This document shows, in pieces, positions 333 to 16,627 of a stretch of DNA of 26,112 bases (within the stretch, counting starts at the first letter, position 1; each line of letters starts with the position of its first letter). The DNA lies in NCBI GenBank assembly GCA_030668875.1, contig DAOVER010000040.1, positions 1 to 26,112 on the forward strand, given 5' to 3'. Below the pieces are notes generated by a model. The model saw only the letters and a list, made by a program, of their open reading frames with translations. It made no database searches and had not been told where the DNA came from. The translations under genes and the position numbers were made by a program. The DNA comes from Candidatus Heimdallarchaeota archaeon. Lineage in GTDB: Archaea > Asgardarchaeota > Heimdallarchaeia > Heimdallarchaeales > Heimdallarchaeaceae.

Positions 333-1335
333 TGTTAACTCAACAGACATGGGTTACACTTGAGGGCATATGGAGAGTCAAGGGCACATTCATAAGTCTT
401 TCACCAGGAGTTTGAAGGGTTATTCCTTGATGAGGGCGGGAGAAGTTGTAATAATCACGATAGCGACGGAGGTCAGCGTTACAGTAAGTTAAGCCTAGCC
501 TCTTCATCTCCCTGATGATTGTACCATGGAGACGTTCGACTTTACCACAAGTTTCGGGATGATAAATTCTTGCTCGGATATGGTCGATAATACCTGTTTG
601 ACACCAACGGGTGAAGGAACTTGTCCCCCCTCTTCGTGGGTGGAAGATGGCACCATTATCCGTTAAGATCTGACGGGGAGTGCCATAGGTTTGCATAGCC
701 TGACCTAAGAGCTGGAGGATGTCCCAAGTCTTAACAGGGCGGGGAAAGAACTTTGCTGCTACACAGAACCTTGAGTGGTCATCAATAACACTCACAAGGT
801 GAAGGTGTTGTCCTTGCTCTTCTACCCAGAAAGGTCCCTTGATATCAATCTGCCAGAGGTCGTTAGGTTCTTCTCGTTCAAACCTTTTCACTCTCTTGTA
901 AGCTTTCTTTGTCGTTCTCCAGGTTTCCTCCCCCTCTTGTTGGAGCGTCTTCCAGACAGTCGTGTGAGAAAGGTCTATCCCTTCGAGGGTTAATACATAG
1001 GCTATCTTAATTATATTGTAGGCATTTGCTCTCCTGAGTTCAAGAATACGCTCTTTCTTCTCTTCTGTCACTTTCCTCTTGATCGTCTTGGGTCGTGAGG
1101 ATCTTTCCTTGTACCATTCCCCTTCAGGGTTCTCTGCATACCTTTTCATCCACTTATAGATGAACTTCCTGCTGACCATAAACGCTCTAGCTAGGTGGGT
1201 AATGTTTTCGCCTTTCAAAGCCTTTTTAACTACAATTTTTCTCAGTTTTACCAGGTTACGGTTGGGATTCATATGTATCACATACCCTCCGTAACCCATT
1301 CTTTTAAACTGTTACCAAGGTGGGTTTAGTTAACA
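333..1335 (-). mobile_element. IS481-family insertion sequence, 1003 bp
   Basis: Ends 5'-TGT...ACA-3'. Left IR 333-358 TGTTAACTCAACAGACATGGGTTACA vs reverse complement of right IR 1310-1335 TGTTAACTAAACCCACCTTGGTAACA (20/26 identical). A single transposase ORF fills the element. Visibly more GC-rich than the flanks. No target-site duplication found. Confidence 0.9.
340..1299 (-). CDS. IS481-family DDE transposase (HTH + rve integrase core)
   Basis: N-terminal HTH (LARAFMVSRKFIYKWMKRY), LWQIDIKG (D1), VIDDHSRF, ILTDNGAIF (D2), PETCGKVERLHGTI (E), YNFSRPHQG. The stop codon lies inside the left IR. Confidence 0.93.
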   Translation of the reverse strand: MGYGGYVIHMNPNRNLVKLRKIVVKKALKGENITHLARAFMVSRKFIYKWMKRYAENPEGEWYKERSSRPKTIKRKVTEEKKERILELRRANAYNIIKIAYVLTLEGIDLSHTTVWKTLQQEGEETWRTTKKAYKRVKRFEREEPNDLWQIDIKGPFWVEEQGQHLHLVSVIDDHSRFCVAAKFFPRPVKTWDILQLLGQAMQTYGTPRQILTDNGAIFHPRRGGTSSFTRWCQTGIIDHIRARIYHPETCGKVERLHGTIIREMKRLGLTYCNADLRRYRDYYNFSRPHQGITLQTPGERLMNVPLTLHMPSSVTHVC

Positions 1336-1379: not shown

Positions 1380-2588
1380 TTAATTCTTTTGTTTATGCTC
1401 TTCCAGGAGTTTAATGAATTCAGGAATGATCTCATGCATATTCCCAACTATTCCAAAGTCTGCTACTTTGAAAATTGGTGCTTCAACATCGTTATTTACC
1501 GCTATAATGGTATTGGAGGAAGTCATTCCAACAAGATGTTGAATTGCTCCTGAAATCCCAAATGCTATGTATAGTGTTGGGGCAACAGTTTTTCCTGATT
1601 GACCTACTTGCTGAGGATGTGGTAACCAACCCATATCGACAAGAGCTCTTGAGCCAGAAACAGTTCCATCTAATACCTTGGCAAGATTTTCAACAACTTT
1701 GAAATTCTCTTTGTTTCCAATTCCACGACCTACTGAAACAAGAATTTGCGCTTCTTCGATGTTGATACCTTCATCATGGGATGTGATTTCCTCAATAATT
1801 TTAGTCCTTATACTAAATGGTTTGAGATTTACATCAATTCTTACTATTTCTCCAGTTTTATTCTCATCTGGATCTGGTTTTGGAAAGACATTTGGTCTTA
1901 CTGAAGACATTTGTGGTCTTGTATAAGGTGACAGAATAGATGCCATAATATTACCTCCAAAAGCTGGACGAGTTTGAAGTAACTGTCTGTTTTCATTGAT
2001 GTCTAAACCTGTACAATCAGCTGTTAAACCTAATGCTAGTCTTGCTGCAATTCTTGGAGCTAAATCACGACCATTAGGGGTTGCTCCGTATAGGACCACA
2101 GAAGGTTTCTCTGCTGCAATGACAGATGAAATAACTGTTGCATACCCATCAGTAGAATACTCTTCTAGCAGCTCATGTTCGCAAAGATAAACAATATCTG
2201 CTCCATGGTGGATAAGAATTGGTACTAGATGCTCAACCTCTTTACCAAGTAGAAGAATTGCGAGTGATTCACCTAGTTTATTAGCTAGTTCTCTACCCTT
2301 ACCTAGTAATTCTAAAGCAACATTTTTGATTACAATTTTTCCATCTTTTTTCTCCCATTCTCCCCAGACAAAAACTTTGTTGAATTTAGCTAACTCTTCT
2401 TCAGAAATTGCTTTTCTTTCAATACTCAATGCTTCGAAATTACACGCACTTACACATGCTCCACAAAGAGTACAATTATCAAGAACTTTAGCTTTCTTTG
2501 TTTCTGGAACAACTATGATTGCGCCAAAAGGACAAACTCTCTCACACGCTTTACAACCTGTACATGCTTCTATATTTACTTCCAACAT
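1380..2588 (-). CDS. etfA: Electron transfer flavoprotein alpha subunit with N-terminal 2x[4Fe-4S] ferredoxin domain
   Basis: CTGCKACERVCP and CTLCGACVSAC motifs, LTADCTGL, QTRPAFGGNIMA, VSVGRG, QVGQSGKTVAP, GISGAIQHLVGM. Start placed at ATG 2588 after an AGGGTGAG SD-like sequence (ORF track uses GTG 2597). Confidence 0.95.
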   Translation of the reverse strand: MLEVNIEACTGCKACERVCPFGAIIVVPETKKAKVLDNCTLCGACVSACNFEALSIERKAISEEELAKFNKVFVWGEWEKKDGKIVIKNVALELLGKGRELANKLGESLAILLLGKEVEHLVPILIHHGADIVYLCEHELLEEYSTDGYATVISSVIAAEKPSVVLYGATPNGRDLAPRIAARLALGLTADCTGLDINENRQLLQTRPAFGGNIMASILSPYTRPQMSSVRPNVFPKPDPDENKTGEIVRIDVNLKPFSIRTKIIEEITSHDEGINIEEAQILVSVGRGIGNKENFKVVENLAKVLDGTVSGSRALVDMGWLPHPQQVGQSGKTVAPTLYIAFGISGAIQHLVGMTSSNTIIAVNNDVEAPIFKVADFGIVGNMHEIIPEFIKLLEEHKQKN

Positions 2589-2593
2589 ATTTC

Positions 2594-3397
2594 TCACCCT
2601 TTAATAAAATTATTTTCTACTAAATAGTTTAGAAGTTTCTGTGCAGCAATTTTAGGGTCGCTCCCATCGACTATTTCTCCCCCGGTTTTAGCTGGTGGCG
2701 CAAATATTTTATCTACTTGAGTGGGAGAAGCTTGTAATCCTATTTTATTTTCATCAATGTTCATATCCGTTGCGGTAAGAGTTTCAATGGGTTTGTTTCT
2801 CGAATCTAATACCTGTTGCATAGATGGTATTCTTCGAATATTAGATCCTTTACTCATCGTTACTAATGCAGGCATTCTTGTTGAAAGAATTTGGTAACCA
2901 GTTTCTGTCTCTCGTTTGACTTCTACTCTTTTTCCATTGACTTTCACATCTACTCCGTAAGTTATTTGTGGAATACCTAACTGTTCAGCTGTTTCTGCTG
3001 GAACTTGTGCTGTATCCCCATCAATGGCTTGTTTTCCTGCAAGTATCAAATCAAAATTAGGTTCTATATGCACTATGCCTTCTTTGAGAGCAGTGGATGT
3101 AACCCAAACATCAGAACCAGCAAATTTTCTATCAGATAGAAGATAGCCTTTATCAGCTCCTAGTCCTAGACATCTGTATAAAACAGCTTTAGCTTGAGGA
3201 GGGCCCATTGTAATTGCAGTAATTTCAATGTTCAATTCGGGAAGCTCTTGTTTTAATTTTACAGCTTGATCCAAAGCATATTCGCAGTAAGGATTAAGAA
3301 TAGAATCTACACCTTCTCGGATTAGTGTTCCTGTTTCGGGATCAACTGCTACTTTGTCCGCTTCAGGAACTTGTTTAACAAGAATTACGATTTTCAT
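2594..3397 (-). CDS. etfB: Electron transfer flavoprotein beta subunit
   Basis: MKIVILVKQVP, ILNPYCEYAL, TMGPPQA, SDRKFAGSD, GKQAIDGDTAQVP, SPTQV. ATG 3397 overlaps the upstream stop (ATGA); an alternative ATG is at 3403. Confidence 0.95.
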   Translation of the reverse strand: MKIVILVKQVPEADKVAVDPETGTLIREGVDSILNPYCEYALDQAVKLKQELPELNIEITAITMGPPQAKAVLYRCLGLGADKGYLLSDRKFAGSDVWVTSTALKEGIVHIEPNFDLILAGKQAIDGDTAQVPAETAEQLGIPQITYGVDVKVNGKRVEVKRETETGYQILSTRMPALVTMSKGSNIRRIPSMQQVLDSRNKPIETLTATDMNIDENKIGLQASPTQVDKIFAPPAKTGGEIVDGSDPKIAAQKLLNYLVENNFIKG

Positions 3398-5031
3398 ATA
3401 CATCTACTCCTTGGGAATATATTACCACAATTAACTAAACAATGTGGATCGAATTTACACTTGATTGCCTTCATTTGTTCAATTCCTTCTTCTCCAAACA
3501 TAATCTCTAGATATTCATGTTTTATCTTTCCTATCCCATGTTCTGCTGAAACAGAACCACCAAAAGAAACCGCTTTTCTAGCAAATATCATATAAAGTTC
3601 TTTACCTTTTTTCAGTTCTTCCAAATTCCTTGGAAGAATATTAACGTGAACATGATTGTCACCTATGTGGCCCCAGACAACGTACTCAAGCCCTTCTTCC
3701 TTAAGAGATTCATGATAGAACTTCATTATTTCTTTTAGATATTTGTCTTCTACTGACATGTCAGTACCGAGTTTGTGAATTGAGGGATATTGTTTCTTTC
3801 TTTCAGCTATAATATTATTAACCATTTCAGGAACTGCGTGTCTAAAATGCTTTATGCGCTCTAATTCCCTGTCTTCATATACGCACCATGTATCTTCAAG
3901 CGAAGAATTGCACCTCTGGAGAATCACGCTTATTTGAGTAAATACTTTCTCTATGTCTTCTTCAGAATACGCCAAATCAAAAGATATGGCGGTTTTGACA
4001 TTTTCTCCAATGTTTGGCATATTCACAAATTTTGGATCTATTTTCTGTTTATCTCTCACCAAATTTAATGCGTGATTATCAAAATATTCTATGAACTCGG
4101 GCGAAAGATTCTCATCATCTCGAAGAAGTTTTACAAAATCGATAGCATCTTCTTCATTTCTGAAGAAACCTACACATGACATTTGAGCATTGTATTCCTT
4201 GATCCAGATATCTGCTTCTGTGATGATACCAAAAATACCTTCAGATCCAATGAATAAATCAATTAAGTCCATGTTTGGCTCAGTAAATAAACCCGCAGCA
4301 TTTTTTACCTTTGGCATGTGATAATATGGTGCTTTAATGATTAATTCCTTTCCAGCTGTTTTCACAACGAAGATGCCATCTTCAGCCTTATATTCACCTC
4401 GAGTAATGTTTAAAACCTCACAAGTTCCAAGAACAACACGGATACGGCGAACCCAATCTCTTGTAGAACCATATTTGAAAGATCTGGCACCTGATGCATT
4501 GGCACATATTGTACCGCCTAATGAGGCGGTCATTTCTGTAGGATCCATTGGATAATACATTGTACACTCTTCTATGAATTTTTCAACCCAATTACTTTCA
4601 GGTGGGATACTTTGACTTGGGTCACATTTTTTGAATTTTACATATTCATTTATCTCATTAAGAGAAATACTTGGTTGGCAACGCAAAAACCAGCGCTCTG
4701 CATCTTCATCAAAACCAATACCAATGACCTCATTCATCCTTTCTAAGGACATCACGGCTCCACCGAAAGGGACAGCAGAACCTACTATCCCAGTTCGAGC
4801 GGCAGAAATTGTGATCATATTACTTTCTTCTTTCATCTTGTTAATGATGGAAACAATTTCATTTTCTGTCGTTGGGAAAAACAGCCATTCTGCGTTACCC
4901 CCACTGATTTTAGATTCATCAACTAAATAACTGGGATAAGACTCTGAAATAATCATCTCTCCCTTAATTGACTTAATATCATCAAATGGGGCAGAATCTA
5001 TTTTTTCTGCAACAATAATATTTGTGGGCAT
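3394..5031 (-). CDS. FAD-linked oxidoreductase, GlcD / D-lactate (2-hydroxyacid) dehydrogenase family
   Basis: FAD-binding PCMH motifs (RTGIVGSAVP, YPMDPTEMTASLGGTICANASG, DLFIGSEGIFGIITE). C-terminal metal-binding GHIGDNHVHVN and SAEHGIG. AGGAG SD. First gene of the etf operon. Confidence 0.9.
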   Translation of the reverse strand: MPTNIIVAEKIDSAPFDDIKSIKGEMIISESYPSYLVDESKISGGNAEWLFFPTTENEIVSIINKMKEESNMITISAARTGIVGSAVPFGGAVMSLERMNEVIGIGFDEDAERWFLRCQPSISLNEINEYVKFKKCDPSQSIPPESNWVEKFIEECTMYYPMDPTEMTASLGGTICANASGARSFKYGSTRDWVRRIRVVLGTCEVLNITRGEYKAEDGIFVVKTAGKELIIKAPYYHMPKVKNAAGLFTEPNMDLIDLFIGSEGIFGIITEADIWIKEYNAQMSCVGFFRNEEDAIDFVKLLRDDENLSPEFIEYFDNHALNLVRDKQKIDPKFVNMPNIGENVKTAISFDLAYSEEDIEKVFTQISVILQRCNSSLEDTWCVYEDRELERIKHFRHAVPEMVNNIIAERKKQYPSIHKLGTDMSVEDKYLKEIMKFYHESLKEEGLEYVVWGHIGDNHVHVNILPRNLEELKKGKELYMIFARKAVSFGGSVSAEHGIGKIKHEYLEIMFGEEGIEQMKAIKCKFDPHCLVNCGNIFPRSRCI

Positions 5032-5082
5032 TTTGATGCTCCTATAATAATTGTAATTTCTACATTGTGTGATGAAGGTTTT

Positions 5083-5093
5083 CTATATAAAAG
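5083..5093 (-). promoter_or_regulatory. TATA box for the dehydrogenase-etfB-etfA operon
   Basis: Minus strand reads CTTTTATATAG, about 50 nt upstream of ATG 5031. Confidence 0.55.
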
Positions 5094-5211
5094 ATTAACT
5101 ACATAGTCGTTTGGAGGGATAAGAGCTTAGAAAAGTCTACTAGACTCATAGTTCAACAGATAAATTAATATGTTTTACTATGTCATAACCAGACAGTTAA
5201 GTGGTAGTAGT

Positions 5212-5628
5212 ATGCCAGATATAACAAACACGGAAAAAACAAGAATTCGTTCAACTGCAATAAGATTAGTGCATAAAATATGGGCATCCCCTTTCAGTGA
5301 AGGCGTCTTGATATATTCAGATCTTTCTGAAGATCTCTATATGAAATCTGCTAGATGGCGTATCTGTCTACGATGTGGTACAATAGATCAGAAAGAAAAA
5401 ATGATCGATGGAAAACATTCCTGTGATTTCAATACCAATAATTTTCCTGTGTTAGTTGCAACATCATGGTACAAATTAAAAGAATACTTTCTAGAGCATG
5501 GTTTTGTGAAACTCGTTGAAAAATATAATCTAAAACTCAAGCCACCAATTATGATCACGAAACAAGTTCCAGTAGAAGTTGAACAAGCGATAATTACAGA
5601 AGAAAAAGCAGTTACTAAAAGCAACTAA
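5212..5628 (+). CDS. Hypothetical small zinc-binding protein, paralog 1 (C-x2-C-x13-H-x-C)
   Basis: MPDI start at 5212 chosen by alignment with paralogs. SARWRICLRCG...HSC...FPVLVATSWYKLKEYF. Confidence 0.85.
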   Translation: MPDITNTEKTRIRSTAIRLVHKIWASPFSEGVLIYSDLSEDLYMKSARWRICLRCGTIDQKEKMIDGKHSCDFNTNNFPVLVATSWYKLKEYFLEHGFVKLVEKYNLKLKPPIMITKQVPVEVEQAIITEEKAVTKSN

Positions 5629-5776
5629 TTTCTATTTTAACTTTGAACCAATTTTACTCTGTTTTTTGATACATATAGACTTTTTTCTCACAAATCTTAT
5701 ATGCTATGTCATCTAAGGATATACATAGTCGTGTATACCATGCTTAACCTAAAGGGGTTTGAAAGGAGTTGAGATC

Positions 5777-6121
5777 TTGCCAGATATTCCTAATAAAGAA
5801 AAGCATTTGATTGAACTTATTGCTGATAGGTATAGTAAAATTCTTTCTCGTCTCAAATTTAGCAATGGATCTTTAGTTTATCAAAGAACCTATGAACAAC
5901 TATACATAAAATCTTCTCGCTGGAAATTCTGTCTGCTATGCGGAAAAATTGCTACTCCAACTGATTTTACCCGAGATATGCACAGCTGTCCCCCTCTTTT
6001 GTTTCAAAAGCACCCTATTTGCTGTTCAACCTCTTGGATAAAATTGCGTGATTTTTTCCTTTCGAACAAATATCTAGAGACTCTTTCTAAAGTTGGAGTA
6101 GAAGTTATTGATGAAAGTTAA
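5777..6121 (+). CDS. Hypothetical small zinc-binding protein, paralog 2
   Basis: TTG 5777 lies 8 nt after AAAGGAG and gives (M)PDI like the paralogs. SSRWKFCLLCG...HSC...STSWIKLRDFF. Confidence 0.85.
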   Translation: MPDIPNKEKHLIELIADRYSKILSRLKFSNGSLVYQRTYEQLYIKSSRWKFCLLCGKIATPTDFTRDMHSCPPLLFQKHPICCSTSWIKLRDFFLSNKYLETLSKVGVEVIDES

Positions 6122-6170
6122 TCATTACATTCTACGAGAATATAAAAAGAAAGAGAATTACCTTAGTATT

Positions 6171-6662
6171 TTATTCTACAATCTGTTCAATTTCAGAAAC
6201 ATCTTCGCTGATTAGTTCTTCTTCTGTGGGTACTATTTCCTCTCTTACAAGCCTGCGCTCCTTAGTTCTTCTAGAAACTCTTCTTTCAACACCAAACTTT
6301 TGTAGAATGTCAACATACTCTCCAGCCTGAAAGAAATCTCTTAACTTTAACCAGCTTGTTGTAACTAGATATGGAAAAGCAAGCTTATCAAAACTTTTTG
6401 TGCATTGATGAGTCTCTTTTGAGAGCTTACTTGTAGAATTGATCTCACCACATTTCAAACAAATTCTAATTCTTGCTTTACCATCATATAATTTTTCAAT
6501 AGTTTCTTGATAAACTTGCAACCCTTCCCCCAAAGGTGCATACAGGAGATCTGTAACAAATTTTTCAGATAAATCTTTTATTATGTTTTTTTCTTTATTT
6601 GTAATTTGATCTGTTGGTCCTCTGTGACCAAAATCTTCTTTGTCACTACTTGATTTATTCAT
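6171..6662 (-). CDS. Hypothetical small zinc-binding protein, paralog 3, with N- and C-terminal charged extensions
   Basis: KARIRICLKCG...HQC...FPYLVTTSWLKLRDFF. Convergent with paralog 2. Confidence 0.85.
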   Translation of the reverse strand: MNKSSSDKEDFGHRGPTDQITNKEKNIIKDLSEKFVTDLLYAPLGEGLQVYQETIEKLYDGKARIRICLKCGEINSTSKLSKETHQCTKSFDKLAFPYLVTTSWLKLRDFFQAGEYVDILQKFGVERRVSRRTKERRLVREEIVPTEEELISEDVSEIEQIVE

Positions 6663-6665
6663 CTA

Positions 6666-6866
6666 TTAATATACCTCTATATTGTATATCTCCTTCCTAC
6701 ATATATAAACATATTCCCATTGGCATTTTTGGCATACTGCCCCATGTTTACCCTCATAATATCTCTGATATGTCGGAAATATAGGCAATTTCTGCCTATT
6801 CTTGTTTTTTGTTAAATATTTGTTTAGCGGCTCACCTATTCCATTGTAGCGATATGATGTCCTCAT
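6666..6866 (-). CDS. Possible 66-aa ORF with H-x3-C-x2-C-x6-C
   Basis: ATG 6866 within ORF-track 6666..6920. Ends TAA-TAG-ATG in frame with paralog 3. No SD, and it overlaps a hairpin and a TATA-like sequence. Confidence 0.2.
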   Translation of the reverse strand: MRTSYRYNGIGEPLNKYLTKNKNRQKLPIFPTYQRYYEGKHGAVCQKCQWEYVYICRKEIYNIEVY

Positions 6867-6947
6867 TTCATTCAAACATGCTGTGCCAAATAAGTCGGAA
6901 TTATACCGACATTTCCACAATGCTTATATATGGTGTCGGAATAAGTC
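6771..6947. promoter_or_regulatory. Promoter of the small-ORF cassette with repeated GTCGG operator-like sites
   Basis: GTCGGAA at 6772, 6894 and 6935; inverted CCGAC at 6906; TATA-like TTATATA at 6924-6930; AATAAGTC at 6889 and 6940. Confidence 0.5.
6781..6810 (+). terminator. Hairpin followed by T-tract
   Basis: ATAGGCA (6781-6787), atttc, TGCCTAT (6793-6799), then tcttgtttttt. Confidence 0.4.
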
Positions 6948-6981
6948 CTACATAGAGACAAAAACTGGTGAAAAAAAAGTG

Positions 6982-7170
6982 ATGCAAAACGAAATAAAAA
7001 AACTGCTTGACCGCGAGTTTCGAAGTATCTACAAAGATTTGGATGCGATAACCTTGACCCTTACATTGAGATTATCAAGCTACAAAGAATATAACGATCC
7101 CTTCCTGCTTCCTTCTTCTTCAATTGGTTTTTTGGAATCTAACCTGCGAAGGTCAAACAAACAAAGGTGA
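6982..7170 (+). CDS. Small hypothetical protein (62 aa), cassette ORF1
   Basis: GGTGA SD at 6967-6971, then GTG 6979 / ATG 6982. MQNEIKKLLDREFRSIYKDL... Confidence 0.6.
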   Translation: MQNEIKKLLDREFRSIYKDLDAITLTLTLRLSSYKEYNDPFLLPSSSIGFLESNLRRSNKQR

Positions 7171-7175
7171 AATGA

Positions 7176-7322
7176 ATGAAAAATTACGAACTGGATAAAT
7201 ATTTGGATCAACAAATATCGGCACTCGAACACGAGTTGAAAAGGCTAAAAAGAGCCCGACGTGCTAGACGAGCAAAAGCTCAATCTAGCTTCAGATTTGG
7301 GGGAAATCCCGCTTTAGGGTAA
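7176..7322 (+). CDS. Small basic coiled-coil-like protein (48 aa), cassette ORF2, absent from the ORF track
   Basis: AGGTGA at 7165-7170, ATG 7176. My translation: MKNYELDKYLDQQISALEHELKRLKRARRARRAKAQSSFRFGGNPALG*. Confidence 0.7.
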   Translation: MKNYELDKYLDQQISALEHELKRLKRARRARRAKAQSSFRFGGNPALG

Positions 7323-7336
7323 CCCCCCTTTTTTTT
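7299..7336 (+). terminator. GC-rich hairpin + T8 intrinsic-terminator-like element inside the cassette
   Basis: GGGGG 7299-7303 pairs with CCCCC 7323-7327; inner CCC 7308-7310 pairs with GGG 7317-7319; T8 at 7329-7336. Confidence 0.6.
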
Positions 7337-7349
7337 AAGGTGAAAACAA

Positions 7350-7607
7350 ATGGCAACAAAAATTCAAACAAAAACCGAGTTCATCACAATCTTCAACAAT
7401 TTGAAAACTCTTTACAATTTCGAATTTATAGATGAAGAAACTTTCAACTTATTCCTGAAACAAATTGCAGAACATCTTCTAGCAACTAATATTGAAGGAT
7501 TGTATGATGAACAAGAAATCAAGACACAAGACATTAGTAAAGAAGTAAGAAAAGCCAAAGATCATGCTTTGAAGGACAAGCTAATGTATTTTGGTTCCTT
7601 CAATTAA
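7350..7607 (+). CDS. Small hypothetical protein (85 aa), cassette ORF3, SHOCT-like N-terminal motif
   Basis: AAGGTGA SD at 7337-7343, ATG 7350. NLKTLYNFEFIDEETF resembles the SHOCT pattern. Confidence 0.7.
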   Translation: MATKIQTKTEFITIFNNLKTLYNFEFIDEETFNLFLKQIAEHLLATNIEGLYDEQEIKTQDISKEVRKAKDHALKDKLMYFGSFN

Positions 7608-7629
7608 ACTTACAGAGGTGGACAAAGAG

Positions 7630-7950
7630 ATGATGTTACCTTCTTCTTCCTTTTTACCAAACTCTAGCGGTTTCATATGTTCAAGTCAATCACTCATCTT
7701 ACTCAAAGATTATGTTGATAATGTATTGTTGAAACACCTACCCACACCTATATATCTGTCCATCAGGGATCAGAACGGTTTGGAAAAAAAACTGCTCTTA
7801 ATAATTCTCCCTCTGATCAGTAATAATCCTGATCGTTCTGATTCCGCTATATTTTCCTTGCTTCTTATCATGCAGCAAGTTCTAGAGAAATCTTCTCTTG
7901 CCCCAATTAATAATATTGACAAAAACTTTACAGAGGTGATAAAAAAATGA
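7630..7950 (+). CDS. Hypothetical protein (106 aa), cassette ORF4
   Basis: GAGGTG SD at 7615-7620, ATG 7630 (ORF track starts at TTG 7591). Leu/Ile-rich. Confidence 0.65.
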   Translation: MMLPSSSFLPNSSGFICSSQSLILLKDYVDNVLLKHLPTPIYLSIRDQNGLEKKLLLIILPLISNNPDRSDSAIFSLLLIMQQVLEKSSLAPINNIDKNFTEVIKK

Positions 7951-8102
7951 GAAAGATCAGTTCTGATGCAATAAGCAGACTATTAAGAAACAAGGCTATC
8001 ATAAATCTATCAAGATTCTTAATCGCACTTGCTTCCCTATCAGCATTATTCTACGTAGCTTTAGCATCAATATCGGCAATCTATTACTTCGGAGCATATT
8101 AA
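7947..8102 (+). CDS. Small membrane protein (51 aa), cassette ORF5, absent from the ORF track
   Basis: GAGGTGA SD at 7933-7939; ATGA overlap with the ORF4 stop. MRKISSDAISRLLRNKAIINLSRFLIALASLSALFYVALASISAIYYFGAY*: basic N-half, about 28-residue hydrophobic C-half. Confidence 0.7.
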   Translation: MRKISSDAISRLLRNKAIINLSRFLIALASLSALFYVALASISAIYYFGAY

Positions 8103-8114
8103 TCTGAGCTCCAT

Positions 8115-8134
8115 CTTCTCTTTTTCTTTTTTTT
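8115..8134 (+). terminator. Pyrimidine/T-rich archaeal-type terminator closing the cassette
   Basis: cttctctttttctttttttt directly after the ORF5 stop. Confidence 0.55.
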
Positions 8135-8200
8135 AGTCATTTTTGCAGAAATCTTATATTATGCTCCTTCTAATGTTATTTTACTGTATGGTGTAGTAGA

Positions 8201-10513
8201 ATGTCCACTCCCCCTAAAGATGAGTTGATTTTTGTTGAGAAATTGCTTAGGGAAGGGAAACTGGATGAAGCGTTACAATTAGCAAGAGATTTGGAAAATG
8301 TAATAAATCTTGATTTAAACGATAAAATGGAAGCTAAATCCTTACAGTTAGAAATATTATCCATGCAATGTGATCATGAAAGGGTTCTGAAATTGGCTGA
8401 TATGGTGATTAACTTAAGCATCGAGATTAAATTACCCTATCATAGACTTGATGGGTTAATCTTTAAGGCACTATCTCTTGTCAAATTGAAAAAATTTAAT
8501 GAAAGAGATGAAGTAATCAATCAGATAGAAGCTTTGTTAGAACAAGTTAGAAAAGATGAAGATACTCAATTCATAAAGCGTGAAATTCGTTTTCAAATGA
8601 TTAAGGGAGAAGTATTTTTAGATGAGTATGAGTTTGAAAAATCTCTAGAAACATTCAATGAATCTCTGCTTTTAAACGAGAAATTAAACAACATGTATCT
8701 GAATGCTATAATAACAAAGAACATTGCAGATGTGTATTTCTATTATGGGCATTTAGATATCGCTATGCAAAATTATGAAACAAGTTTATCCATCGCAGAA
8801 GAATTAGGGTATAGACAAATTATTGCATTTATTTATCATATGATAGCAGGATTAAAGTTCAAAGAGGATAAACTTAAAGTAGCATTAGAATTTGAAAAGA
8901 AGAGTGGAGATATCTTCAGGGAATTAAATGATGAATACAATTTAGCTTTTAATAGTCAATATCTTGGTTTTCTGTACAAAGGATTAGGCAAATTAGACCA
9001 ATCCTTGGAACATCTTTTAAATGCAAGAAATTATTTCGAGCAAATTGGTCATAAGGCTCGAGTAATTAACGTGTTAATTAACATAATTGGTCTTTATAAA
9101 ACAAAAGGGGATTATGATAAAGCACTTTCAACTCTTGATAAATATTATAATATGAGTGAAGAGCTGGGGGACGAACATTGTTTAGGAATTGCGCATAGAT
9201 GGTATGGCTCAATTTATTGTGATAAAGGAGAACTCGACGAAGCGTTAAAACACTATCAAAAATCATTAGAAATATTCCAAAAATTCAAGACACTTGACAC
9301 TCTAGGTGGTCTCTATTACAGCTTCGGAGATCTTTATCTAAAGAAAGATGAATTAGACAAATCTCTAGAATACCATTTATTAGCTTTAGAGTTTAGAGAA
9401 AAAATGCAGATGGGAGACAAACTTAGCTTAATTGCATTATCTTTGAAATCCTTAGTAGTTCTATATTTGAATTTAGATGAAAACGAAGAAGCTCACAATT
9501 ATCTTGTAAGATTAGAGATTTTTAGTTCAGAGACAGATACTGTAGAGATAGAATATCTATATCTTTTAGCAAAATCTATTTATCTAAAATATCAAGGAGA
9601 AATCGGGACTGCAAATGAGTCTAAGAAGATTTTATTTGATTTAATTCATAAGCAAAATATCAATCACAGCATCTCTGTTGAAGCTATACTGAATCTTTGT
9701 GAACTTCTCCTAATTGAACTTGGTACAACGGAAGATATGTCCATTCTTCTAGAAACAAAAGGATATATCGCTCAACTTATTGAAATTGCTTCGTATAATA
9801 ATCTCTATCCCCTATTAGCTGAAACCTATTTATTACAAGCACAACTAGCTCTTATAGAAATTAAAATTGATGAAGCAAAATACTTTATTTCTAATGCTCA
9901 ACAAATTGCAGAGGAAAAAGGGTTGAGAAGATTAGCTATAATCATTTCTAATGAATATGATATGATTCTAGATAAATTGGACCAGTGGGATGATTTTACA
10001 AGGAAACTCCCCACAGTTGCTGAGAAACTTGAATTAACACATATAGAACAAATACTTAATCAAATGATAAAGAAGAGAATGATTGACACTTCATATGCAG
10101 TAAAAGAAGAAGAGTATCCCATCATGCTGTTTATTCTCAATACATCAGATACAATCCTTTTCACTGAAAATTTTGATGTAGAATTAGAAGAGCAAGATTT
10201 GGAGCAGTTTTTAGAAGTTCTCAAGGAAATAAGATTAGCAGAAAGCAGTGATATTATTCAGAGAAATAGATTCCAGGAATATACATACTTGACAAAAAAT
10301 ATCGATTCCTTTCTATTTTCTTATATTTTTGAAGGTAAAGCTTATTCCAGTATCAATAAGATGAATGCTTTTATTGATGAAATAAAGGATCCTTCTCCCA
10401 TATGGGATATCCTCAAGGATTCTGAAAATACTGGACAACCAATTAGTGTACTTAATAGAATGGCAATATCTCAAACGGTAAATAATATGTTTAAAAGAAA
10501 AAATGAAACATAA
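8201..10513 (+). CDS. Tetratricopeptide repeat protein with conserved linker and C-terminal alpha/beta (longin-like?) domain
   Basis: Repeated TPR-type helices (IADVYFYYGHLDIAMQNYETSL; YGSIYCDKGELDEALKHYQKSL). Paralog at 16723. Confidence 0.85.
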   Translation: MSTPPKDELIFVEKLLREGKLDEALQLARDLENVINLDLNDKMEAKSLQLEILSMQCDHERVLKLADMVINLSIEIKLPYHRLDGLIFKALSLVKLKKFNERDEVINQIEALLEQVRKDEDTQFIKREIRFQMIKGEVFLDEYEFEKSLETFNESLLLNEKLNNMYLNAIITKNIADVYFYYGHLDIAMQNYETSLSIAEELGYRQIIAFIYHMIAGLKFKEDKLKVALEFEKKSGDIFRELNDEYNLAFNSQYLGFLYKGLGKLDQSLEHLLNARNYFEQIGHKARVINVLINIIGLYKTKGDYDKALSTLDKYYNMSEELGDEHCLGIAHRWYGSIYCDKGELDEALKHYQKSLEIFQKFKTLDTLGGLYYSFGDLYLKKDELDKSLEYHLLALEFREKMQMGDKLSLIALSLKSLVVLYLNLDENEEAHNYLVRLEIFSSETDTVEIEYLYLLAKSIYLKYQGEIGTANESKKILFDLIHKQNINHSISVEAILNLCELLLIELGTTEDMSILLETKGYIAQLIEIASYNNLYPLLAETYLLQAQLALIEIKIDEAKYFISNAQQIAEEKGLRRLAIIISNEYDMILDKLDQWDDFTRKLPTVAEKLELTHIEQILNQMIKKRMIDTSYAVKEEEYPIMLFILNTSDTILFTENFDVELEEQDLEQFLEVLKEIRLAESSDIIQRNRFQEYTYLTKNIDSFLFSYIFEGKAYSSINKMNAFIDEIKDPSPIWDILKDSENTGQPISVLNRMAISQTVNNMFKRKNET

Positions 10514-11561: not shown

Positions 11562-11731
11562 AAGTCTTTTAAAGCCTTGGTAAAAAGAATAGTCAGAGAT
11601 GAGGAAGATAAGGAAATAAAAATTATTCTGTTTTTTCAACATTTCAGAAACTATGCTATTAATTGAAAAGAATCAAACATTCGCAACAATAATACTTGGT
11701 TTTGAATCATAAATAACTACAGATGAAATCA
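11562..11731 (+). promoter_or_regulatory. Promoter and long leader of DEAD-box helicase 1
   Basis: AAGTCTTTTAAA (11562-11573), TGAGGAAGAT (11600-11609) and TTTTTTCAAC (11631-11640) are all repeated upstream of helicase 2. Confidence 0.65.
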
Positions 11732-14610: not shown

Positions 14611-14788
14611 ATTGATGTGTTGATTGACAAAATATAGCTGTTAATCCTTTTTTATCCTTTTTACAACTCTTTTCTATTCTTTCTTTTCATAGTTTCTAAT
14701 TTCCTGGAACTTTTTTGTCTTGGTTAACAGAAAAATTAATATGTATCCATAAACTAATACACTTGAGAGTAATAACCAGGTGGTTGAC

Positions 14789-15199: not shown

Positions 15200-15257
15200 T
15201 TCTTTCACTGACTCCTCTTTCCTATTTTGTATTTCCTACTCATTTTTTCCAAAAACT

Positions 15258-15339
15258 ATTTATATGTGTCTCAATATAGACACATATGTATGTGAGTGAA
15301 AACGTGCACATACGTGCATTGTATTTTTGGTACATACAT
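15258..15339 (+). promoter_or_regulatory. TATA box overlapped by a 10-bp inverted repeat, plus further CATA/TATG repeats
   Basis: TTTATAT near 15259-15265; ATATGTGTCT (15262-15271), 6-nt spacer, AGACACATAT (15278-15287); CACATA-tg-TATGTG (15281-15294); ACGTGCA at 15302 and 15312. Confidence 0.6.
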
Positions 15340-15355: not shown

Positions 15356-15634
15356 ATGTCGAAATATTTAGCGATCCACCCTTTTCCAGAACCAGCACCA
15401 ATAGAAGCTTTAACACCTGTCGGTCAGGCCGTCAAAGCTCATAGCAATGCTGATGCTTACTGGGTTAAGAGTTGGGCAATATTAAATGAACAAGGTCTTA
15501 TCAAGAAGATTTTGTGTCAATGGGATGCCAAAGATATAGATTCAATTAAAGCAATAATAGATAAAATTCCTAATCTTCCTACAGAAGGGATATTCCCAAT
15601 GGGTATATTTCAAGCAGAAGATTATAGAACTTAA
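15356..15634 (+). CDS. DUF4242-like (SCO4226-type putative Ni-binding) small alpha/beta protein
   Basis: YLAIH...YWVKSW...KILCQWDAKDIDSI follows the DUF4242 pattern. GAGGT SD. Confidence 0.65.
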   Translation: MSKYLAIHPFPEPAPIEALTPVGQAVKAHSNADAYWVKSWAILNEQGLIKKILCQWDAKDIDSIKAIIDKIPNLPTEGIFPMGIFQAEDYRT

Positions 15635-15643
15635 GAGGGTGAA

Positions 15644-16627
15644 ATGATGAAGATAAAAAACAAACTGAAATCAATAATAATTCTGTTTTGTCTCTCTTTA
15701 TTCCTTTTATATTTCCAGATGGGTAATGATGTACTAGCTTTTGATGAAAGCTTGTTAGTACCATCTGACAGAATAGAGATACACTCTGATGAAGTATTTG
15801 AAACCTTAGGTTTTAGTGGGTCTGGTACTGAAACTGATCCTTACATTATCGAGAATCTAGAAATATCAGCTGGAACCTATTACAGTAATATAGATATTGC
15901 CAATACTACGAAGTATTTTATTATTAGAAATTGCCATCTTAAGGGCGGTTATCATGGAATAAAAATAATTGATGTAGCAGAAGGAACGGTTCAGATGTTG
16001 GAAAATCTTTGTGAAGTCAATATGAAATATGGTATATGGCTAGAGAACACTAACGATGTTTACATAGCAAAGAATACGCTTGGACCATATAATACACTTG
16101 GTGTCAGACTTGAAAATTGTTCTTCAGTTACTATCACGGAAAATATTTGTGATGGAAATAATGGCGCGGGAATAATTTTTGCTAATTCTGAAAATATTAC
16201 TGTTACAAGAAATACTGCAAGAAACAATGTCTATATTGGAATAGAAAATAAATATTCAAATGATTCCTTAATAGCTTATAATCAGATAGAATACCAAAGT
16301 GAATCTGGGGTAAAAATAGCCGTTGGAGGTTGTAACAATATAATACACCATAATAATTTCATTAGCAATTTTGCAGGTACAGGTCAGGCACAAGCTACTG
16401 ATCATGGAGCATGCAACATCTGGTATGATGAAACAACACTTGAGGGAAATTACTGGAATGATTGGGACGGTGAAGGTAATTATAGCATTGACGGAACTGC
16501 AAATTGTTGTGATCTTTATCCATTAGCCAAACCATATAGTACAGAAGAAGCAACCTTCCCCTATTACTTGTTTATATTGACTTTTATTCCCATAACTTAC
16601 ATAATTCAAAGAAAGAGGAAACAGTAG
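15644..16627 (+). CDS. NosD-like right-handed parallel beta-helix surface protein with C-terminal anchor
   Basis: Signal peptide; GSGTETDPYIIENL; GIxLxNxxNxxIxxN repeats; IHHNNF...GNYWNDW...DLYPL; TM followed by RKRKQ. Confidence 0.88.
   Translation: MMKIKNKLKSIIILFCLSLFLLYFQMGNDVLAFDESLLVPSDRIEIHSDEVFETLGFSGSGTETDPYIIENLEISAGTYYSNIDIANTTKYFIIRNCHLKGGYHGIKIIDVAEGTVQMLENLCEVNMKYGIWLENTNDVYIAKNTLGPYNTLGVRLENCSSVTITENICDGNNGAGIIFANSENITVTRNTARNNVYIGIENKYSNDSLIAYNQIEYQSESGVKIAVGGCNNIIHHNNFISNFAGTGQAQATDHGACNIWYDETTLEGNYWNDWDGEGNYSIDGTANCCDLYPLAKPYSTEEATFPYYLFILTFIPITYIIQRKRKQ

What the first reader, a model, noticed from the sequence alone, without database searches (positions are those of the whole stretch)
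6982..8102. Cassette of five tiny orphan genes with uniform GGTG ribosome-binding sites
ORFs of 62, 48, 85, 106 and 51 aa are packed head to tail (gaps 5, 27 and 22 nt, then an ATGA overlap). Each is preceded by GGTG(A/G), and two share TACAGAGGTG exactly (7611, 7929). Two are missing from the ORF track. The cassette has its own promoter and terminator. This layout is typical of archaeal virus or plasmid gene blocks, yet no integrase, capsid, replication gene or convincing att site is present. It could be a defective or satellite element, or a domesticated small-protein operon (inference).
Basis: partly seen in the sequence, partly recalled or inferred. Interest (0 to 1): 0.72.

Follow-up and report, generated by a model that had tools for sequence, protein, structure and literature searches.

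The report
Genus-specific regulated small-protein operon in Heimdallarchaeaceae
The five tiny genes are real, selected, chromosomally inherited genes found in a single genus of Heimdall (Asgard) archaea, most likely switched by a neighbouring new zinc-finger protein, and they are not a virus or plasmid remnant; what they do biochemically remains unknown.

Summary
The five ORFs (62, 48, 85, 106 and 51 aa), their spacing, and a GGTG Shine-Dalgarno before each are as described.

All five are under purifying selection (dN/dS mostly 0.05-0.6). The block is syntenic in related genomes of one Heimdallarchaeaceae genus.

The mobile-element reading is not supported:
- The block lies between the same Etf/FAD-oxidase operon and DEAD-box helicase in distant congeners.
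- Its tetranucleotide composition is host-like.
- It has no IMG/VR, PHROG or PADLOC relatives.
- It sits at flank depth in metagenome contigs, with no excision joint.

Gene by gene:
- o1 and o2 (an Arg-rich coiled coil) are genus-only.
- o3 belongs to a Heimdall-only three-helix family.
- o4 is a sub-clade orphan.
- o5 is the membrane anchor of a longer repeat protein found in other species.

The recurrent core is a new Cys2-His-Cys protein family plus o2 plus small tail-anchored proteins. 25 of 31 strong o2 copies lie within 1 kb of such a Zn gene.

The promoter TATA box is flanked by two conserved 6-N7-6 dyads (TGTCGG-N7-CCnACA). Other clades and other Zn paralogs show the same layout with different half-sites. 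I infer that the Zn protein is the operon's regulator.

Biochemical function is unknown. Interest is moderate.

The parts
6171..6662 (-). Zn163: divergently transcribed member of a new Cys-x2-Cys-x13-His-x-Cys protein family; candidate regulator of the cassette
   Evidence: The family alignment A5 has invariant C67, C70 and nearly invariant H84, C86. The AF2 core has pLDDT above 90 and no PDB or AFDB fold match. The family is present in genus g1 (23/23) and g10 (2/2) only, with 23 representative clusters among 1.84 billion proteins. 25 of 31 strong o2 copies lie within 1 kb of a family member.
6770..6796 (+). Upstream conserved elements: a lone ATGTCGGAA half-site (6770-6778) and the palindrome GGCA-N5-TGCC (6784-6796)
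   Evidence: Both are conserved blocks in the 5-genome intergenic alignment. GGCAA/TTGCC-like palindromes stand at the same relative place in other clades and in module 2. The genome holds 19 GGCA-N5-7-TGCC sites.
6893..6911 (+). Operator dyad O1: AGTCGG-N7-CCGACA, upstream of the TATA box
   Evidence: GTCGG-N7-CCGAC is the only such palindrome (spacer 5-11) in the whole genome. It is conserved in 5 genomes. The same layout occurs in module-2 promoters of G001 and G011.
6924..6930 (+). TATA box TTATATA of the cassette promoter
   Evidence: It is conserved as TTATATA or TTAAATA in 5 genomes. Promoter function is inferred from position and archaeal promoter rules.
6934..6952 (+). Operator dyad O2: TGTCGG-N7-CCTACA, between the TATA box and the inferred transcription start (TACATAG near 6949-6955)
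   Evidence: It is conserved in 5 genomes. The same dyad stands after the TATA box in G001 and G011 module 2. The start site is inferred.
6982..7170 (+). o1, 62 aa, soluble helical protein; SD GGTGA at 6967
   Evidence: dN/dS is 0.12-0.59. A profile finds it only in genus g1: 14 of the 23 other g1 genomes at E 1e-15 or better (16 at E 0.01), none in 6 genomes of other genera of the family. It is always immediately 5' of o2.
7176..7322 (+). o2, 48 aa, N-terminal coiled-coil helix followed by an Arg-rich stretch (LKRARRARRAKA); the last residue is Gly in all 8 aligned orthologues; SD overlaps the o1 stop
   Evidence: Alignment A2. dN/dS is 0.35-1.1 among close relatives, yet the protein is 50% conserved across the genus. 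It is found in genus g1 only (19/23) and in 0 of 58 other genomes of the class, at 2-4 copies per genome.
7299..7336 (+). Hairpin (GGGGG...CCCCC) plus T8 over the o2 stop; possible internal partial terminator
   Evidence: Folding gives -18.7 kcal/mol with z-score -1.1, which is not exceptional. The hairpin and T7-8 are kept in the 5 close genomes, with a compensatory CCC/GGG to CCT/AGG change, but not in distant clades.
7350..7607 (+). o3, 85 aa, three-helix protein of a Heimdall-only family; SD GGTGA at 7339
   Evidence: dN/dS is 0.14-0.21. The family has 76 clusters, all unnamed or 'hypothetical', from Heimdallarchaeota or Asgard. Paralogues exist at C29:8140-8391 and 8511-8771. AF2 gives three helices at pLDDT 62. 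The gene is truncated in G010 and deleted in G002.
7630..7950 (+). o4, 106 aa, sub-clade orphan in the variable slot between o3 and the membrane protein; SD GGTGG at 7617
   Evidence: Only 4 clusters exist among 5.8 billion proteins, all at least 73% identical. dN/dS is 0.20-0.60. It has no similarity to the 46-65-aa ORFs in the same slot of other clades. There is no clear TM segment.
7947..8102 (+). o5, 51 aa, tail-anchored membrane protein (TM 24-42); corresponds to the N-terminal anchor of 112-138-aa repeat proteins in other clades; SD GGTGA at 7935; ATGA overlap with o4
   Evidence: Maximum KD19 hydropathy is 2.27. dN/dS is 0.05-0.40. tblastn matches the N-terminus of the L006 repeat protein. 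The orthologues are listed.
8121..8134 (+). T5 and T8 tracts after o5, the likely archaeal oligo-T terminator
   Evidence: Read from the sequence. Function is inferred from the known oligo-T termination of archaeal RNA polymerase.

Best explanation
The block is a vertically inherited chromosomal operon restricted to one genus of Heimdallarchaeaceae, not a mobile element.

**Gene products.** It encodes five translated small proteins.
- o1, o2 and o3 are soluble helical proteins. o2 is a coiled coil with an Arg-rich C-terminal half.
- o4 is a young sub-clade orphan.
- o5 is a tail-anchored membrane protein.

**Transcription.** It starts from a TATA promoter (6924) sandwiched between two 6-N7-6 dyads, O1 (6893-6911) and O2 (6934-6952). 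I infer that a dimeric DNA-binding protein sits on these dyads and controls access of TBP/TFB/RNA polymerase. The best candidate is the divergently encoded Cys2-His-Cys protein Zn163.

**Translation.** Each cistron carries its own GGTG Shine-Dalgarno. o1/o2 and o4/o5 are translationally coupled. A hairpin plus T8 after o2 may lower the dose of o3-o5.

**Evolutionary core.** The core is [Zn protein + o2 + small tail-anchored proteins]. It exists in two or three paralogous modules in other species. o1 and o3 are accessory, and o4 is recent.

**Function.** I infer that the products form a small complex at the cytoplasmic face of the membrane, with o5 as anchor. The biochemical role is not known.

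**Shown:** the genes are real, the block is syntenic, its taxonomic range is narrow, the operator architecture is conserved, and Zn and o2 genes are linked.

**Inferred:** who binds the dyads, complex formation, and membrane localisation.
For: **Coding**
- dN/dS is below 1 for all five ORFs.
- All five have a GGTG SD, against a 10.7% genomic rate.
- SDs and starts are kept in orthologues.

**Vertical, chromosomal inheritance**
- In G001 and G011 the same order recurs: EtfA/EtfB/FAD-oxidase, Grx, Zn, o1-o2-o3, TM genes, Zn, o2', TM genes, Zn, Zn, DEAD helicase.
- Flanking enzymes are 68-81% identical, while o1-o3 are 40-50% identical.
- In sister genus g10 the same interval holds one Zn gene and no o genes. 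In g13 it holds neither.
- Tetranucleotide composition is at the 59th percentile of genome windows.
- Contigs from 4 runs cover the block at flank depth with no joint across it.

**Taxonomic range**
- o1 and o2 are found in genus g1 only.
- The Zn family is found in g1 and g10 only.
- The o3 family is Heimdall-only.
- o4 has 4 clusters.

**Regulation**
- Two dyads flank the TATA box and are conserved in 5 genomes.
- GTCGG-N7-CCGAC is unique in the genome.
- Other clades have the same layout with other half-sites: TTACTG-N7-CnGTAA and ATGTCAT. G001 and G011 module-2 promoters again carry TGTCGn-N7 dyads next to the Zn orthologue closest to Zn163.
- Promoters downstream of other Zn paralogues, which have no o2 nearby, also carry TATA-proximal TGTnnn dyads: window about 15260-15290 and C17 about 24070.
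- 25 of 31 strong o2 copies lie within 1 kb of a Zn gene.
Against: - There are no expression data. No RNA run is listed as holding this DNA.
- No protein has a recognisable DNA-binding fold. The Zn163 model matches nothing solved.
- o2, with its basic coiled coil, could itself be the DNA binder.
- Codon adaptation of the cassette is low (2.6th percentile of long ORFs) and GC3 is 0.31-0.42 against 0.25. This may mean low expression or a somewhat atypical history.
- o3 and o4 have been deleted in two close relatives, so the five genes are not an obligate unit.
- Related genomes are not independent, so the conservation counts overstate support.
Confidence: 0.62

Rival explanations
1. The block is a decayed or satellite mobile element (virus or plasmid remnant) that lost its integrase, capsid and replication genes.
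For: - The genes are tiny, tightly packed orphans with strong SDs.
- Paralogous modules occur 2-4 times per genome.
- Gene content varies, with a young orphan (o4) and deletions.
- The small proteins evolve fast relative to the flanks.
- An rve-family transposase lies on the same contig at 340-1299.
- Codon adaptation is low.
Against: - The chromosomal position is the same between Etf and the DEAD helicase across the genus.
- Divergence scales with species divergence.
- Tetranucleotide composition is host-like.
- There are no IMG/VR relatives of o2 or o3, and no PHROG hits.
- No integrase, att site or hallmark gene lies within the conserved interval.
- Depth equals the flanks, and no excision joint is seen.
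Confidence: 0.08
2. The block is a toxin-antitoxin or defence-type module. The small hydrophobic protein(s), o5 and its paralogues, would be membrane-damaging toxins. The soluble Arg-rich or helical proteins and the Zn protein would be antitoxin and regulator.
For: - Small single-pass membrane proteins sit next to small basic proteins and a putative autoregulated promoter with operators.
- The modules are multicopy and variable, and are confined to one lineage.
- They lie in a variable interval between core genes.
Against: - There are no PADLOC hits.
- o5 orthologues in other clades are 112-138-aa proteins with long acidic repeats after the TM segment, unlike membrane toxins.
- The modules keep one chromosomal place, whereas defence islands usually shuffle.
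- No nuclease, ATPase or other effector domain is present.
Confidence: 0.12
3. o2, not the Zn protein, is the DNA-binding autoregulator. It would act like a reversed bZIP, with a dimerising coiled coil followed by a basic arm. The Zn protein would have another role, for example RNA or protein binding.
For: - o2 has a heptad-like N-terminal helix and an invariant Arg-rich segment.
- It is the first gene after the dyad-bearing promoter in module 2.
- The dyad symmetry fits a dimer.
Against: - Dyad-bearing promoters also stand next to Zn paralogues that have no o2 nearby.
- The half-sites are 13 bp centre to centre, wider than a bZIP-type fork usually spans (established knowledge of bZIP-DNA complexes).
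- o2's basic segment is nearly invariant across clades, while the operators differ between clades.
Confidence: 0.12
4. Some or all of the ORFs are non-coding chance frames in an AT-rich intergenic island.
For: - The ORFs are very short.
- o2 dN/dS approaches 1 between the closest pairs.
- There are no database families.
Against: - Frames, lengths, starts and SDs are conserved across species at 40-90% amino-acid identity.
- dN/dS is 0.05-0.6 for most pairs.
- Profile hits have intact frames in 15-20 genomes.
Confidence: 0.03

Closest known systems
Divergent regulator-operon units of archaea, in which a repressor binds palindromic operators that overlap or flank the TATA/BRE (for example TrmB-, Lrp/AsnC- or MDR1-type control)
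   Same: A small putative DNA-binding gene is transcribed divergently from, or just upstream of, its target operon. Two dyad operators bracket the TATA box. Operator half-sites differ between paralogues and clades while the layout is kept.
   Different: The candidate regulator has no HTH or other known DNA-binding domain. It is a new Cys2-His-Cys fold with no structural match. Binding has not been shown.
Gene blocks of small ORFans in archaeal viruses and plasmids
   Same: Head-to-tail tiny genes with strong SDs, no database homologues and fast evolution.
   Different: The block has a fixed chromosomal position across a genus, host-like composition, no viral-database relatives and no hallmark or integration genes.
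bZIP-type and arginine-rich-motif peptides (GCN4-type basic zippers; lambda N / HIV Rev-type ARMs)
   Same: o2 combines a short coiled-coil-like helix with a run of Arg/Lys/Ala residues.
   Different: The order is reversed, with the zipper first and the basic arm second. There is no sequence-family match, only sub-threshold coiled-coil hits. Nucleic-acid binding is untested.
Heimdall SNARE-like proteins and other tail-anchored proteins (Sec61-beta/SecG type)
   Same: Small Heimdall proteins with a C-terminal TM anchor and a basic juxtamembrane region. One paralogue (49 aa) gave a sub-threshold Synaptobrevin hit (E 0.019, 15 bits against a cut-off of 26).
   Different: Heimdall SNAREs have an N-terminal three-helix bundle plus a full SNARE motif plus a TM segment, and are usually single-copy (bioRxiv 10.64898/2026.10.19.760048). 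o5 has about 22 cytoplasmic residues and no SNARE motif. It has no Sec61_beta Pfam hit.

Membership tests
Integrated or defective archaeal virus/plasmid | Integrase/recombinase, att repeats or replication/capsid hallmark genes within the element | tested here: not met
   Pfam, PHROG and NCBIfam scans of every ORF in 5170-8102 found nothing. The only transposase (rve, 340-1299) lies beyond the conserved Etf operon.
Integrated or defective archaeal virus/plasmid | Patchy presence at varying loci, or an empty site in close relatives | tested here: not met
   The interval is the same (Etf ... DEAD helicase) in G001, G011 and G000. The close relatives G016, G021, G010 and G002 keep the same immediate neighbours: Zn163, and TPR770 downstream. 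An empty state is seen only in other genera.
Integrated or defective archaeal virus/plasmid | Relatives on viral or plasmid contigs | tested here: not met
   IMG/VR scans with the o2 and o3 profiles gave no confirmed relative. The scan depends on short back-translated patterns, so distant relatives could be missed.
Integrated or defective archaeal virus/plasmid | Composition deviating from the host | tested here: inconclusive
   Tetranucleotide distance is at the 59th percentile and GC is 0.352 against 0.337 +/- 0.024, both host-like. Codon adaptation is low, at the 2.6th percentile.
Known anti-phage defence / toxin-antitoxin systems | Match to a catalogued defence or TA protein model | tested here: not met
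   PADLOC gave no hit for o1-o5 or the Zn proteins. Pfam showed no TA families.
SNARE / Heimdall SNARE-like proteins | SNARE motif of about 53 residues of heptads directly before a C-terminal TM segment, usually with an N-terminal helical bundle | tested here: not met
   o5 has only about 22 residues before its TM segment. The Synaptobrevin hit of a paralogue is below threshold and covers only the juxtamembrane region and TM segment.
Zinc-ribbon / zinc-finger DNA-binding regulators (for Zn163) | Four conserved metal ligands in a knuckle plus helix arrangement | tested here: met
   C67 and C70 are invariant, and H84 and C86 are nearly invariant, in 15 paralogues. The model places C67/C70 on a beta-hairpin at pLDDT above 90. 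Metal binding itself was not measured.
Zinc-ribbon / zinc-finger DNA-binding regulators (for Zn163) | Demonstrated or homology-supported DNA binding | not testable with these tools
   There is no sequence or fold relative with a known function. Support comes only from operator-like dyads next to the family's genes.
Polycistronic archaeal operon with SD-led internal cistrons | Same strand, short or overlapping spacers, an SD before each cistron, one upstream promoter and one downstream terminator | tested here: met
   The TATA box is conserved and a T-tract follows o5. Co-transcription is not measured, and an internal T8 after o2 may split it.

The most novel reading that the evidence does not exclude
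The cassette may be the visible part of a previously undescribed regulatory and membrane system specific to Heimdallarchaeaceae. An expanding family of new Cys2-His-Cys DNA-binding proteins would each read its own TGTnnn-N6-7-nnnACA dyads. Each would switch on small modules made of an Arg-rich coiled coil plus tail-anchored or repeat-bearing membrane proteins, and in paralogous cases NosD-like surface proteins. That would make it a lineage-invented circuit for remodelling the cell envelope or membrane in the closest archaeal relatives of eukaryotes.
Probability: 0.2. Interest if true: 0.6.

Novelty: new variant of a known kind. Interest (0 to 1): 0.4.

Why it matters
Roughly half of Asgard genes are unannotated, and small proteins are routinely missed. 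Two of these five fall under common ORF cut-offs.

This case shows a set of such genes that is real, selected, and organised with a dedicated promoter/operator and a new zinc-binding protein family. All of it was invented within one or two genera of Heimdallarchaeaceae.

It gives a concrete, testable unit for studying how new regulators and small membrane-associated proteins arise in the archaeal lineage nearest to eukaryotes: one regulator candidate, two defined 19-bp operators, and five small products.

It also removes a false lead. It should not be counted as an Asgard virus or plasmid remnant.

Tried and rejected
- **Family scans.** Pfam, PHROG, PADLOC and NCBIfam scans of all five proteins and the Zn paralogues gave only sub-threshold noise: DUF1192, TT1_Tal, DUF4014.
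- **o3 structure.** AF2 gave three helices at pLDDT 62, too weak for fold inference. VIA-wide hits (Z 6 or less) are generic helical hairpins.
- **Zn163 structure.** The model is good (core pLDDT above 90), but Foldseek against PDB gave no hit at E 0.001 or better. AFDB clusters returned one uncharacterised homologue only. VIA-wide gave Z below 5.
- **ESM Atlas.** Nothing usable for o3. Zn163 scored 0.76 at best.
- **Complex prediction** (Zn163 + o1 + o3 with o2 as partner): no verdict, score 0.02.
- **Fused forms.** A search for longer or fused forms of the Zn family found none.
- **RNA evidence.** No RNA holder is listed for this DNA. The DNA runs are contigs only, so no transcript ends could be read.
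- **o3-family IMG/VR scan.** The scan with the wide o3 alignment A4 could not be run because it has no conserved stretch. It was repeated with A1.
- **Rfam and tRNA scans** of the window found nothing.
- **Shared 11-mer as an insertion scar.** I considered that TTACAGAGGTG flanking o4 marks an insertion or duplication scar. I rejected this because the orthologues lack the repeat.
- **SNARE-like reading of the tail-anchored proteins.** I considered and rejected it.
- **o4 and the variable slot.** I tested whether o4 is homologous to the 46-65-aa ORFs in the same slot of other clades. There is no significant similarity.
- **Context of o3 paralogues.** They sit next to HTH-like genes, a coiled-coil protein and a nitroreductase, which gave no functional clue.
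Full report
**1. Observation**

The window is a whole 26,112-bp contig (C11) of a 3.23-Mb metagenome-assembled genome that is 92% complete. Names attached to homologues place it in Candidatus Heimdallarchaeota / Heimdallarchaeaceae.

Reading 6700-8400 and listing ORFs confirms five same-strand ORFs:

| ORF | Coordinates | Length |
|---|---|---|
| o1 | 6982-7170 | 62 aa |
| o2 | 7176-7322 | 48 aa |
| o3 | 7350-7607 | 85 aa |
| o4 | 7630-7950 | 106 aa |
| o5 | 7947-8102 | 51 aa |

- The spacers are 5, 27 and 22 nt, then an ATGA overlap.
- Each start is preceded by GGTG(A/G), at 6967, 7166, 7339, 7617 and 7935. The one at 7166 overlaps the o1 stop.
- In this genome GGTG at -18..-6 precedes 10.7% of long ORFs, and 2.6% is expected by chance. 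Five of five is therefore a real signal.
- The shared TACAGAGGTG (7611, 7929) exists. The 11-mer TTACAGAGGTG occurs only 3 times in the genome, but the orthologous cassettes lack the repeat, so I give it no weight.
- o2 and o5 are under 60 aa, which explains their absence from an ORF track.

**2. The ORFs are genes**

- A DNA search of 40 relatives found the block in 16 of 23 genomes of the same genus and in none of 16 genomes from other families of the order.
- It is complete in G016 (89% identity) and G021 (86%).
- In G010 an internal deletion truncates o3. In G002 a 496-bp deletion removes o3 and o4.
- tblastn shows conserved frames down to 31-50% identity in more distant congeners.
- Nei-Gojobori dN/dS among the close relatives:

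| ORF | dN/dS |
|---|---|
| o1 | 0.12-0.59 |
| o2 | 0.35-1.1 |
| o3 | 0.14-0.21 |
| o4 | 0.20-0.60 |
| o5 | 0.05-0.40 |

- o2 is the least constrained between close pairs. It nevertheless keeps an invariant LKRARR..A.A core, and its last residue is Gly in all 8 aligned orthologues.

**3. It is not a mobile element**

- In G001 (contig C7) and G011 (C41) the gene order is: EtfA(Fer4)-EtfB-FAD-oxidase, glutaredoxin, (NosD), Zn(-), o1-o2-o3, small ORF, TM-repeat protein, TM49, Zn(+), o2', TM', TM'', Zn, Zn, DEAD-box helicase.
- The window has the same landmarks: Etf/FAD-oxidase at 1380-5031, DEAD helicases at 11723 and 13246, and NosD at 15644.
- The flanking enzymes are 68-81% identical between G000 and G001/G011, while o1-o3 are 40-50% identical. 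The small proteins evolve fast but along with the species.
- In the sister genus g10 (G040) the same interval holds DEAD helicase, racemase-like gene, one Zn gene, a membrane protein, and FAD-oxidase-EtfBA, with no o genes. In g13 (a closed genome) neither Zn nor o genes are there.
- The cassette's tetranucleotide profile is at the 59th percentile of random 1.1-kb genome windows. Its GC is 0.352 against 0.337 +/- 0.024.
- Codon adaptation is low, at the 2.6th percentile of long ORFs.
- o2 and o3 profiles have no confirmed relative in IMG/VR. There are no PHROG or PADLOC hits.
- Contigs from four marine-sediment runs cover 5000-9000 at the depth of the flanks, and no joint skips the cassette.

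**4. Range of each family**

| Family | Range |
|---|---|
| o1 | Single copy; genus g1 only: 14 of the 23 other g1 genomes at E 1e-15 or better (16 at E 0.01; 15 and 17 of 24 with G000 itself); 0 of 6 genomes in other genera of the family; always directly 5' of o2 |
| o2 | g1 only (19/23); 0 of 58 other genomes of the class; 2-4 copies per genome |
| o3 | 76 clusters among 5.8 billion proteins, all unnamed or 'hypothetical', from Heimdallarchaeota or Asgard |
| o4 | Four clusters, all at least 73% identical |
| Zn family | g1 23/23 and g10 2/2, nowhere else in the class; 23 representative clusters among 1.84 billion proteins; no fused forms |

- o3 also has tandem paralogues beside HTH-like genes, for example own genome C29:8140-8391 and 8511-8771.
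- o4 is unrelated to the 46-65-aa ORFs in the same slot of other clades.
- o5 is a tail-anchored protein with a TM segment at 24-42. It aligns with the N-terminal anchor of 112-138-aa proteins that carry acidic repeats after the TM segment in other clades.

**5. Anatomy of the module**

- Comparing coordinates, 25 of the 31 strong o2 copies (E below 1e-10) lie within 1 kb of a Zn-family gene. Two of the six exceptions sit at contig ends.
- Two module types exist:
  - Module 1: Zn divergent, then o1-o2-o3-TM.
  - Module 2: Zn co-directional, then o2'-TM'-TM''.
- The recurrent core is therefore Zn + o2 + small membrane proteins. o1 and o3 are accessory, and both are dispensable in some lineages.
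- The G000-clade cassette carries module-1 genes. Its Zn163 is closest to the module-2 Zn of G001 (49.6%).

**6. Promoter and operators**

- The 5-genome alignment of the Zn163-o1 spacer shows conserved islands:
  - an ATGTCGGAA half-site (6770);
  - a GGCA-N5-TGCC palindrome (6784);
  - dyad O1, AGTCGG-N7-CCGACA (6893-6911);
  - the TATA box TTATATA (6924-6930);
  - dyad O2, TGTCGG-N7-CCTACA (6934-6952);
  - TACATAG, the likely start region;
  - the SD.
- GTCGG-N7-CCGAC is the only such palindrome in the 3.2-Mb genome.
- The module-2 promoters of G011 and G001 have the same plan. G011 has ATGTCGC-N7-CCGACAT, then TATA, then ATGTCGC-N7-CCTACAT. G001 has TGTCTG-N7-CAGACA, then TATA, then TGTCGG-N7-CAGACA.
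- Module-1 promoters of the G007/G011 clade use TTACTG-N7-C(G/T)GTAA on both sides of a TTTAAATA box. Those of G001/G006 use ATGTCATCATAA repeats.
- In the own genome, promoters just downstream of two other Zn paralogues, with no o2 nearby, also carry a TATA-proximal dyad:
  - ATGTGTCT-N6-AGACACAT before the 92-aa gene at 15356;
  - ATGTAAC-N6-GTTACAT before the NosD-like gene on C17.
- A constant layout with half-sites that vary by paralogue and clade, always next to a Zn gene, is what a family of dimeric DNA-binding regulators would leave. This is inference. The Zn163 model (pLDDT 77, core above 90; two helices, a Cys-knuckle hairpin, two helices) matches no solved or predicted fold of known function.

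**7. Other features**

- A GGGGG...CCCCC hairpin with T8 (7299-7336) covers the o2 stop. It is kept, with one compensatory pair change, in the five close genomes but not beyond them. It is not unusually stable, at z = -1.1. It may act as a partial oligo-T terminator that lowers o3-o5 relative to o1-o2.
- T5 and T8 tracts (8121-8134) follow o5.
- The TPR gene at 8201 has its own TATA box. It is not linked to the cassette in other clades.

**8. What it most likely is and does**

- I commit to a chromosomal, genus-invented, regulated operon of small proteins, controlled through the O1/O2 dyads, most probably by Zn163.
- The products are likely to act together at the membrane. o5 would be the anchor. 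o1, o2 and o3 would be cytoplasmic helical partners. o2 might bind nucleic acid through its Arg-rich arm.
- The complex prediction gave no verdict, and no RNA data exist. Complex formation, localisation and the biochemical role therefore remain inference.
- The rivals are a decayed mobile element, a TA/defence module, o2 as the real DNA binder, and non-coding frames. They are weighed in their own sections.

**9. Comparison with the known**

- The unit works like the common archaeal arrangement of a regulator beside an operator-flanked promoter, but the candidate regulator belongs to no known DNA-binding family.
- The small proteins belong to no known family.
- A sub-threshold Synaptobrevin hit on a paralogous 49-aa anchor does not make these SNARE-like. 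Heimdall SNAREs have an N-terminal bundle, a full SNARE motif and a TM segment, and are usually single-copy.

**10. Verdict**

- The virus/plasmid interpretation is not supported. The 'domesticated small-protein operon' alternative is supported.
- Novelty: new protein families in a familiar type of genetic unit.
- Interest is moderate at 0.4. It would be higher if the Zn family is shown to be a new class of archaeal transcription factor.

Noticed in passing
window 15255-15295 and G000 contig C17 about 24065-24115: Promoters just downstream of two other Zn-family paralogues (Zn139 at 14780; Zn147 on C17) carry TATA-proximal palindromes with different half-sites: ATGTGTCT-N6-AGACACAT and ATGTAAC-N6-GTTACAT. 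They precede an SCO4226-like 92-aa gene plus NosD, and a NosD-like beta-helix protein.
   Followed up: partly
G000 contig C29 8074-8774 (locus L029 3075-3775): Two tandem o3-family paralogues (87 aa each) lie beside two divergent 228-aa HTH-like genes, a TBP gene and a 262-aa coiled-coil protein. The same 'context B' recurs in many congeners, sometimes with a nitroreductase.
   Followed up: partly
L004 (G010:C28) and L005 (G002:C44): There are independent deletions inside the cassette. G010 lost codons 34-85 of o3 between two TTCAA(T/C)T microhomologies. G002 lost 496 bp running from o3 codon 12 into the 3' end of o4. o1, o2 and o5 stay intact in both.
   Followed up: yes
L030 (G001:C7 8061-11449) and L032 (G011:C41 5603-9699): Other species carry two adjacent paralogous modules. 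One has Zn, o1, o2, o3, a TM-repeat protein and TM49. The other has Zn, o2' and two 47-50-aa tail-anchored proteins. A third o1-o2-Zn set lies on G001:C11 at about 65.5-66.5 kb.
   Followed up: partly
L013 941-1357 (-), L008 1188-1586, L018 2056-2436: o5 orthologues in other clades are 112-138-aa single-pass proteins. Their part after the TM segment consists of 11-12-residue acidic repeats, each ending in Arg (D..D..L/V.R type). They have no Pfam match.
   Followed up: partly
window 340-1299 (-): An rve-family (IS481/IS630-like, HTH + integrase core) transposase sits at the contig start, separated from the cassette by the conserved Etf/FAD-oxidase operon.
   Followed up: no
window 6784-6796: The palindrome GGCA-N5-TGCC lies about 140 bp upstream of the TATA box. 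GGCAA/TTGCC-like versions stand at the same relative place in all clades and in module 2, which suggests a second cis element.
   Followed up: partly
window 6690-6706 (- strand): The Zn163 promoter reads TTTATATATGTAGGAA on the minus strand. That is a TATA box followed by an ATGTAGG half-site, the same word as the right arm of O2 (CCTACAT), which hints at autoregulation.
   Followed up: no
window 8352-8723: Contigs in three of the four runs laid join 8352 to 8723, skipping 370 bases inside the TPR gene at 8201-10513. This is probably a strain variant or a repeat collapse within the TPR array.
   Followed up: no
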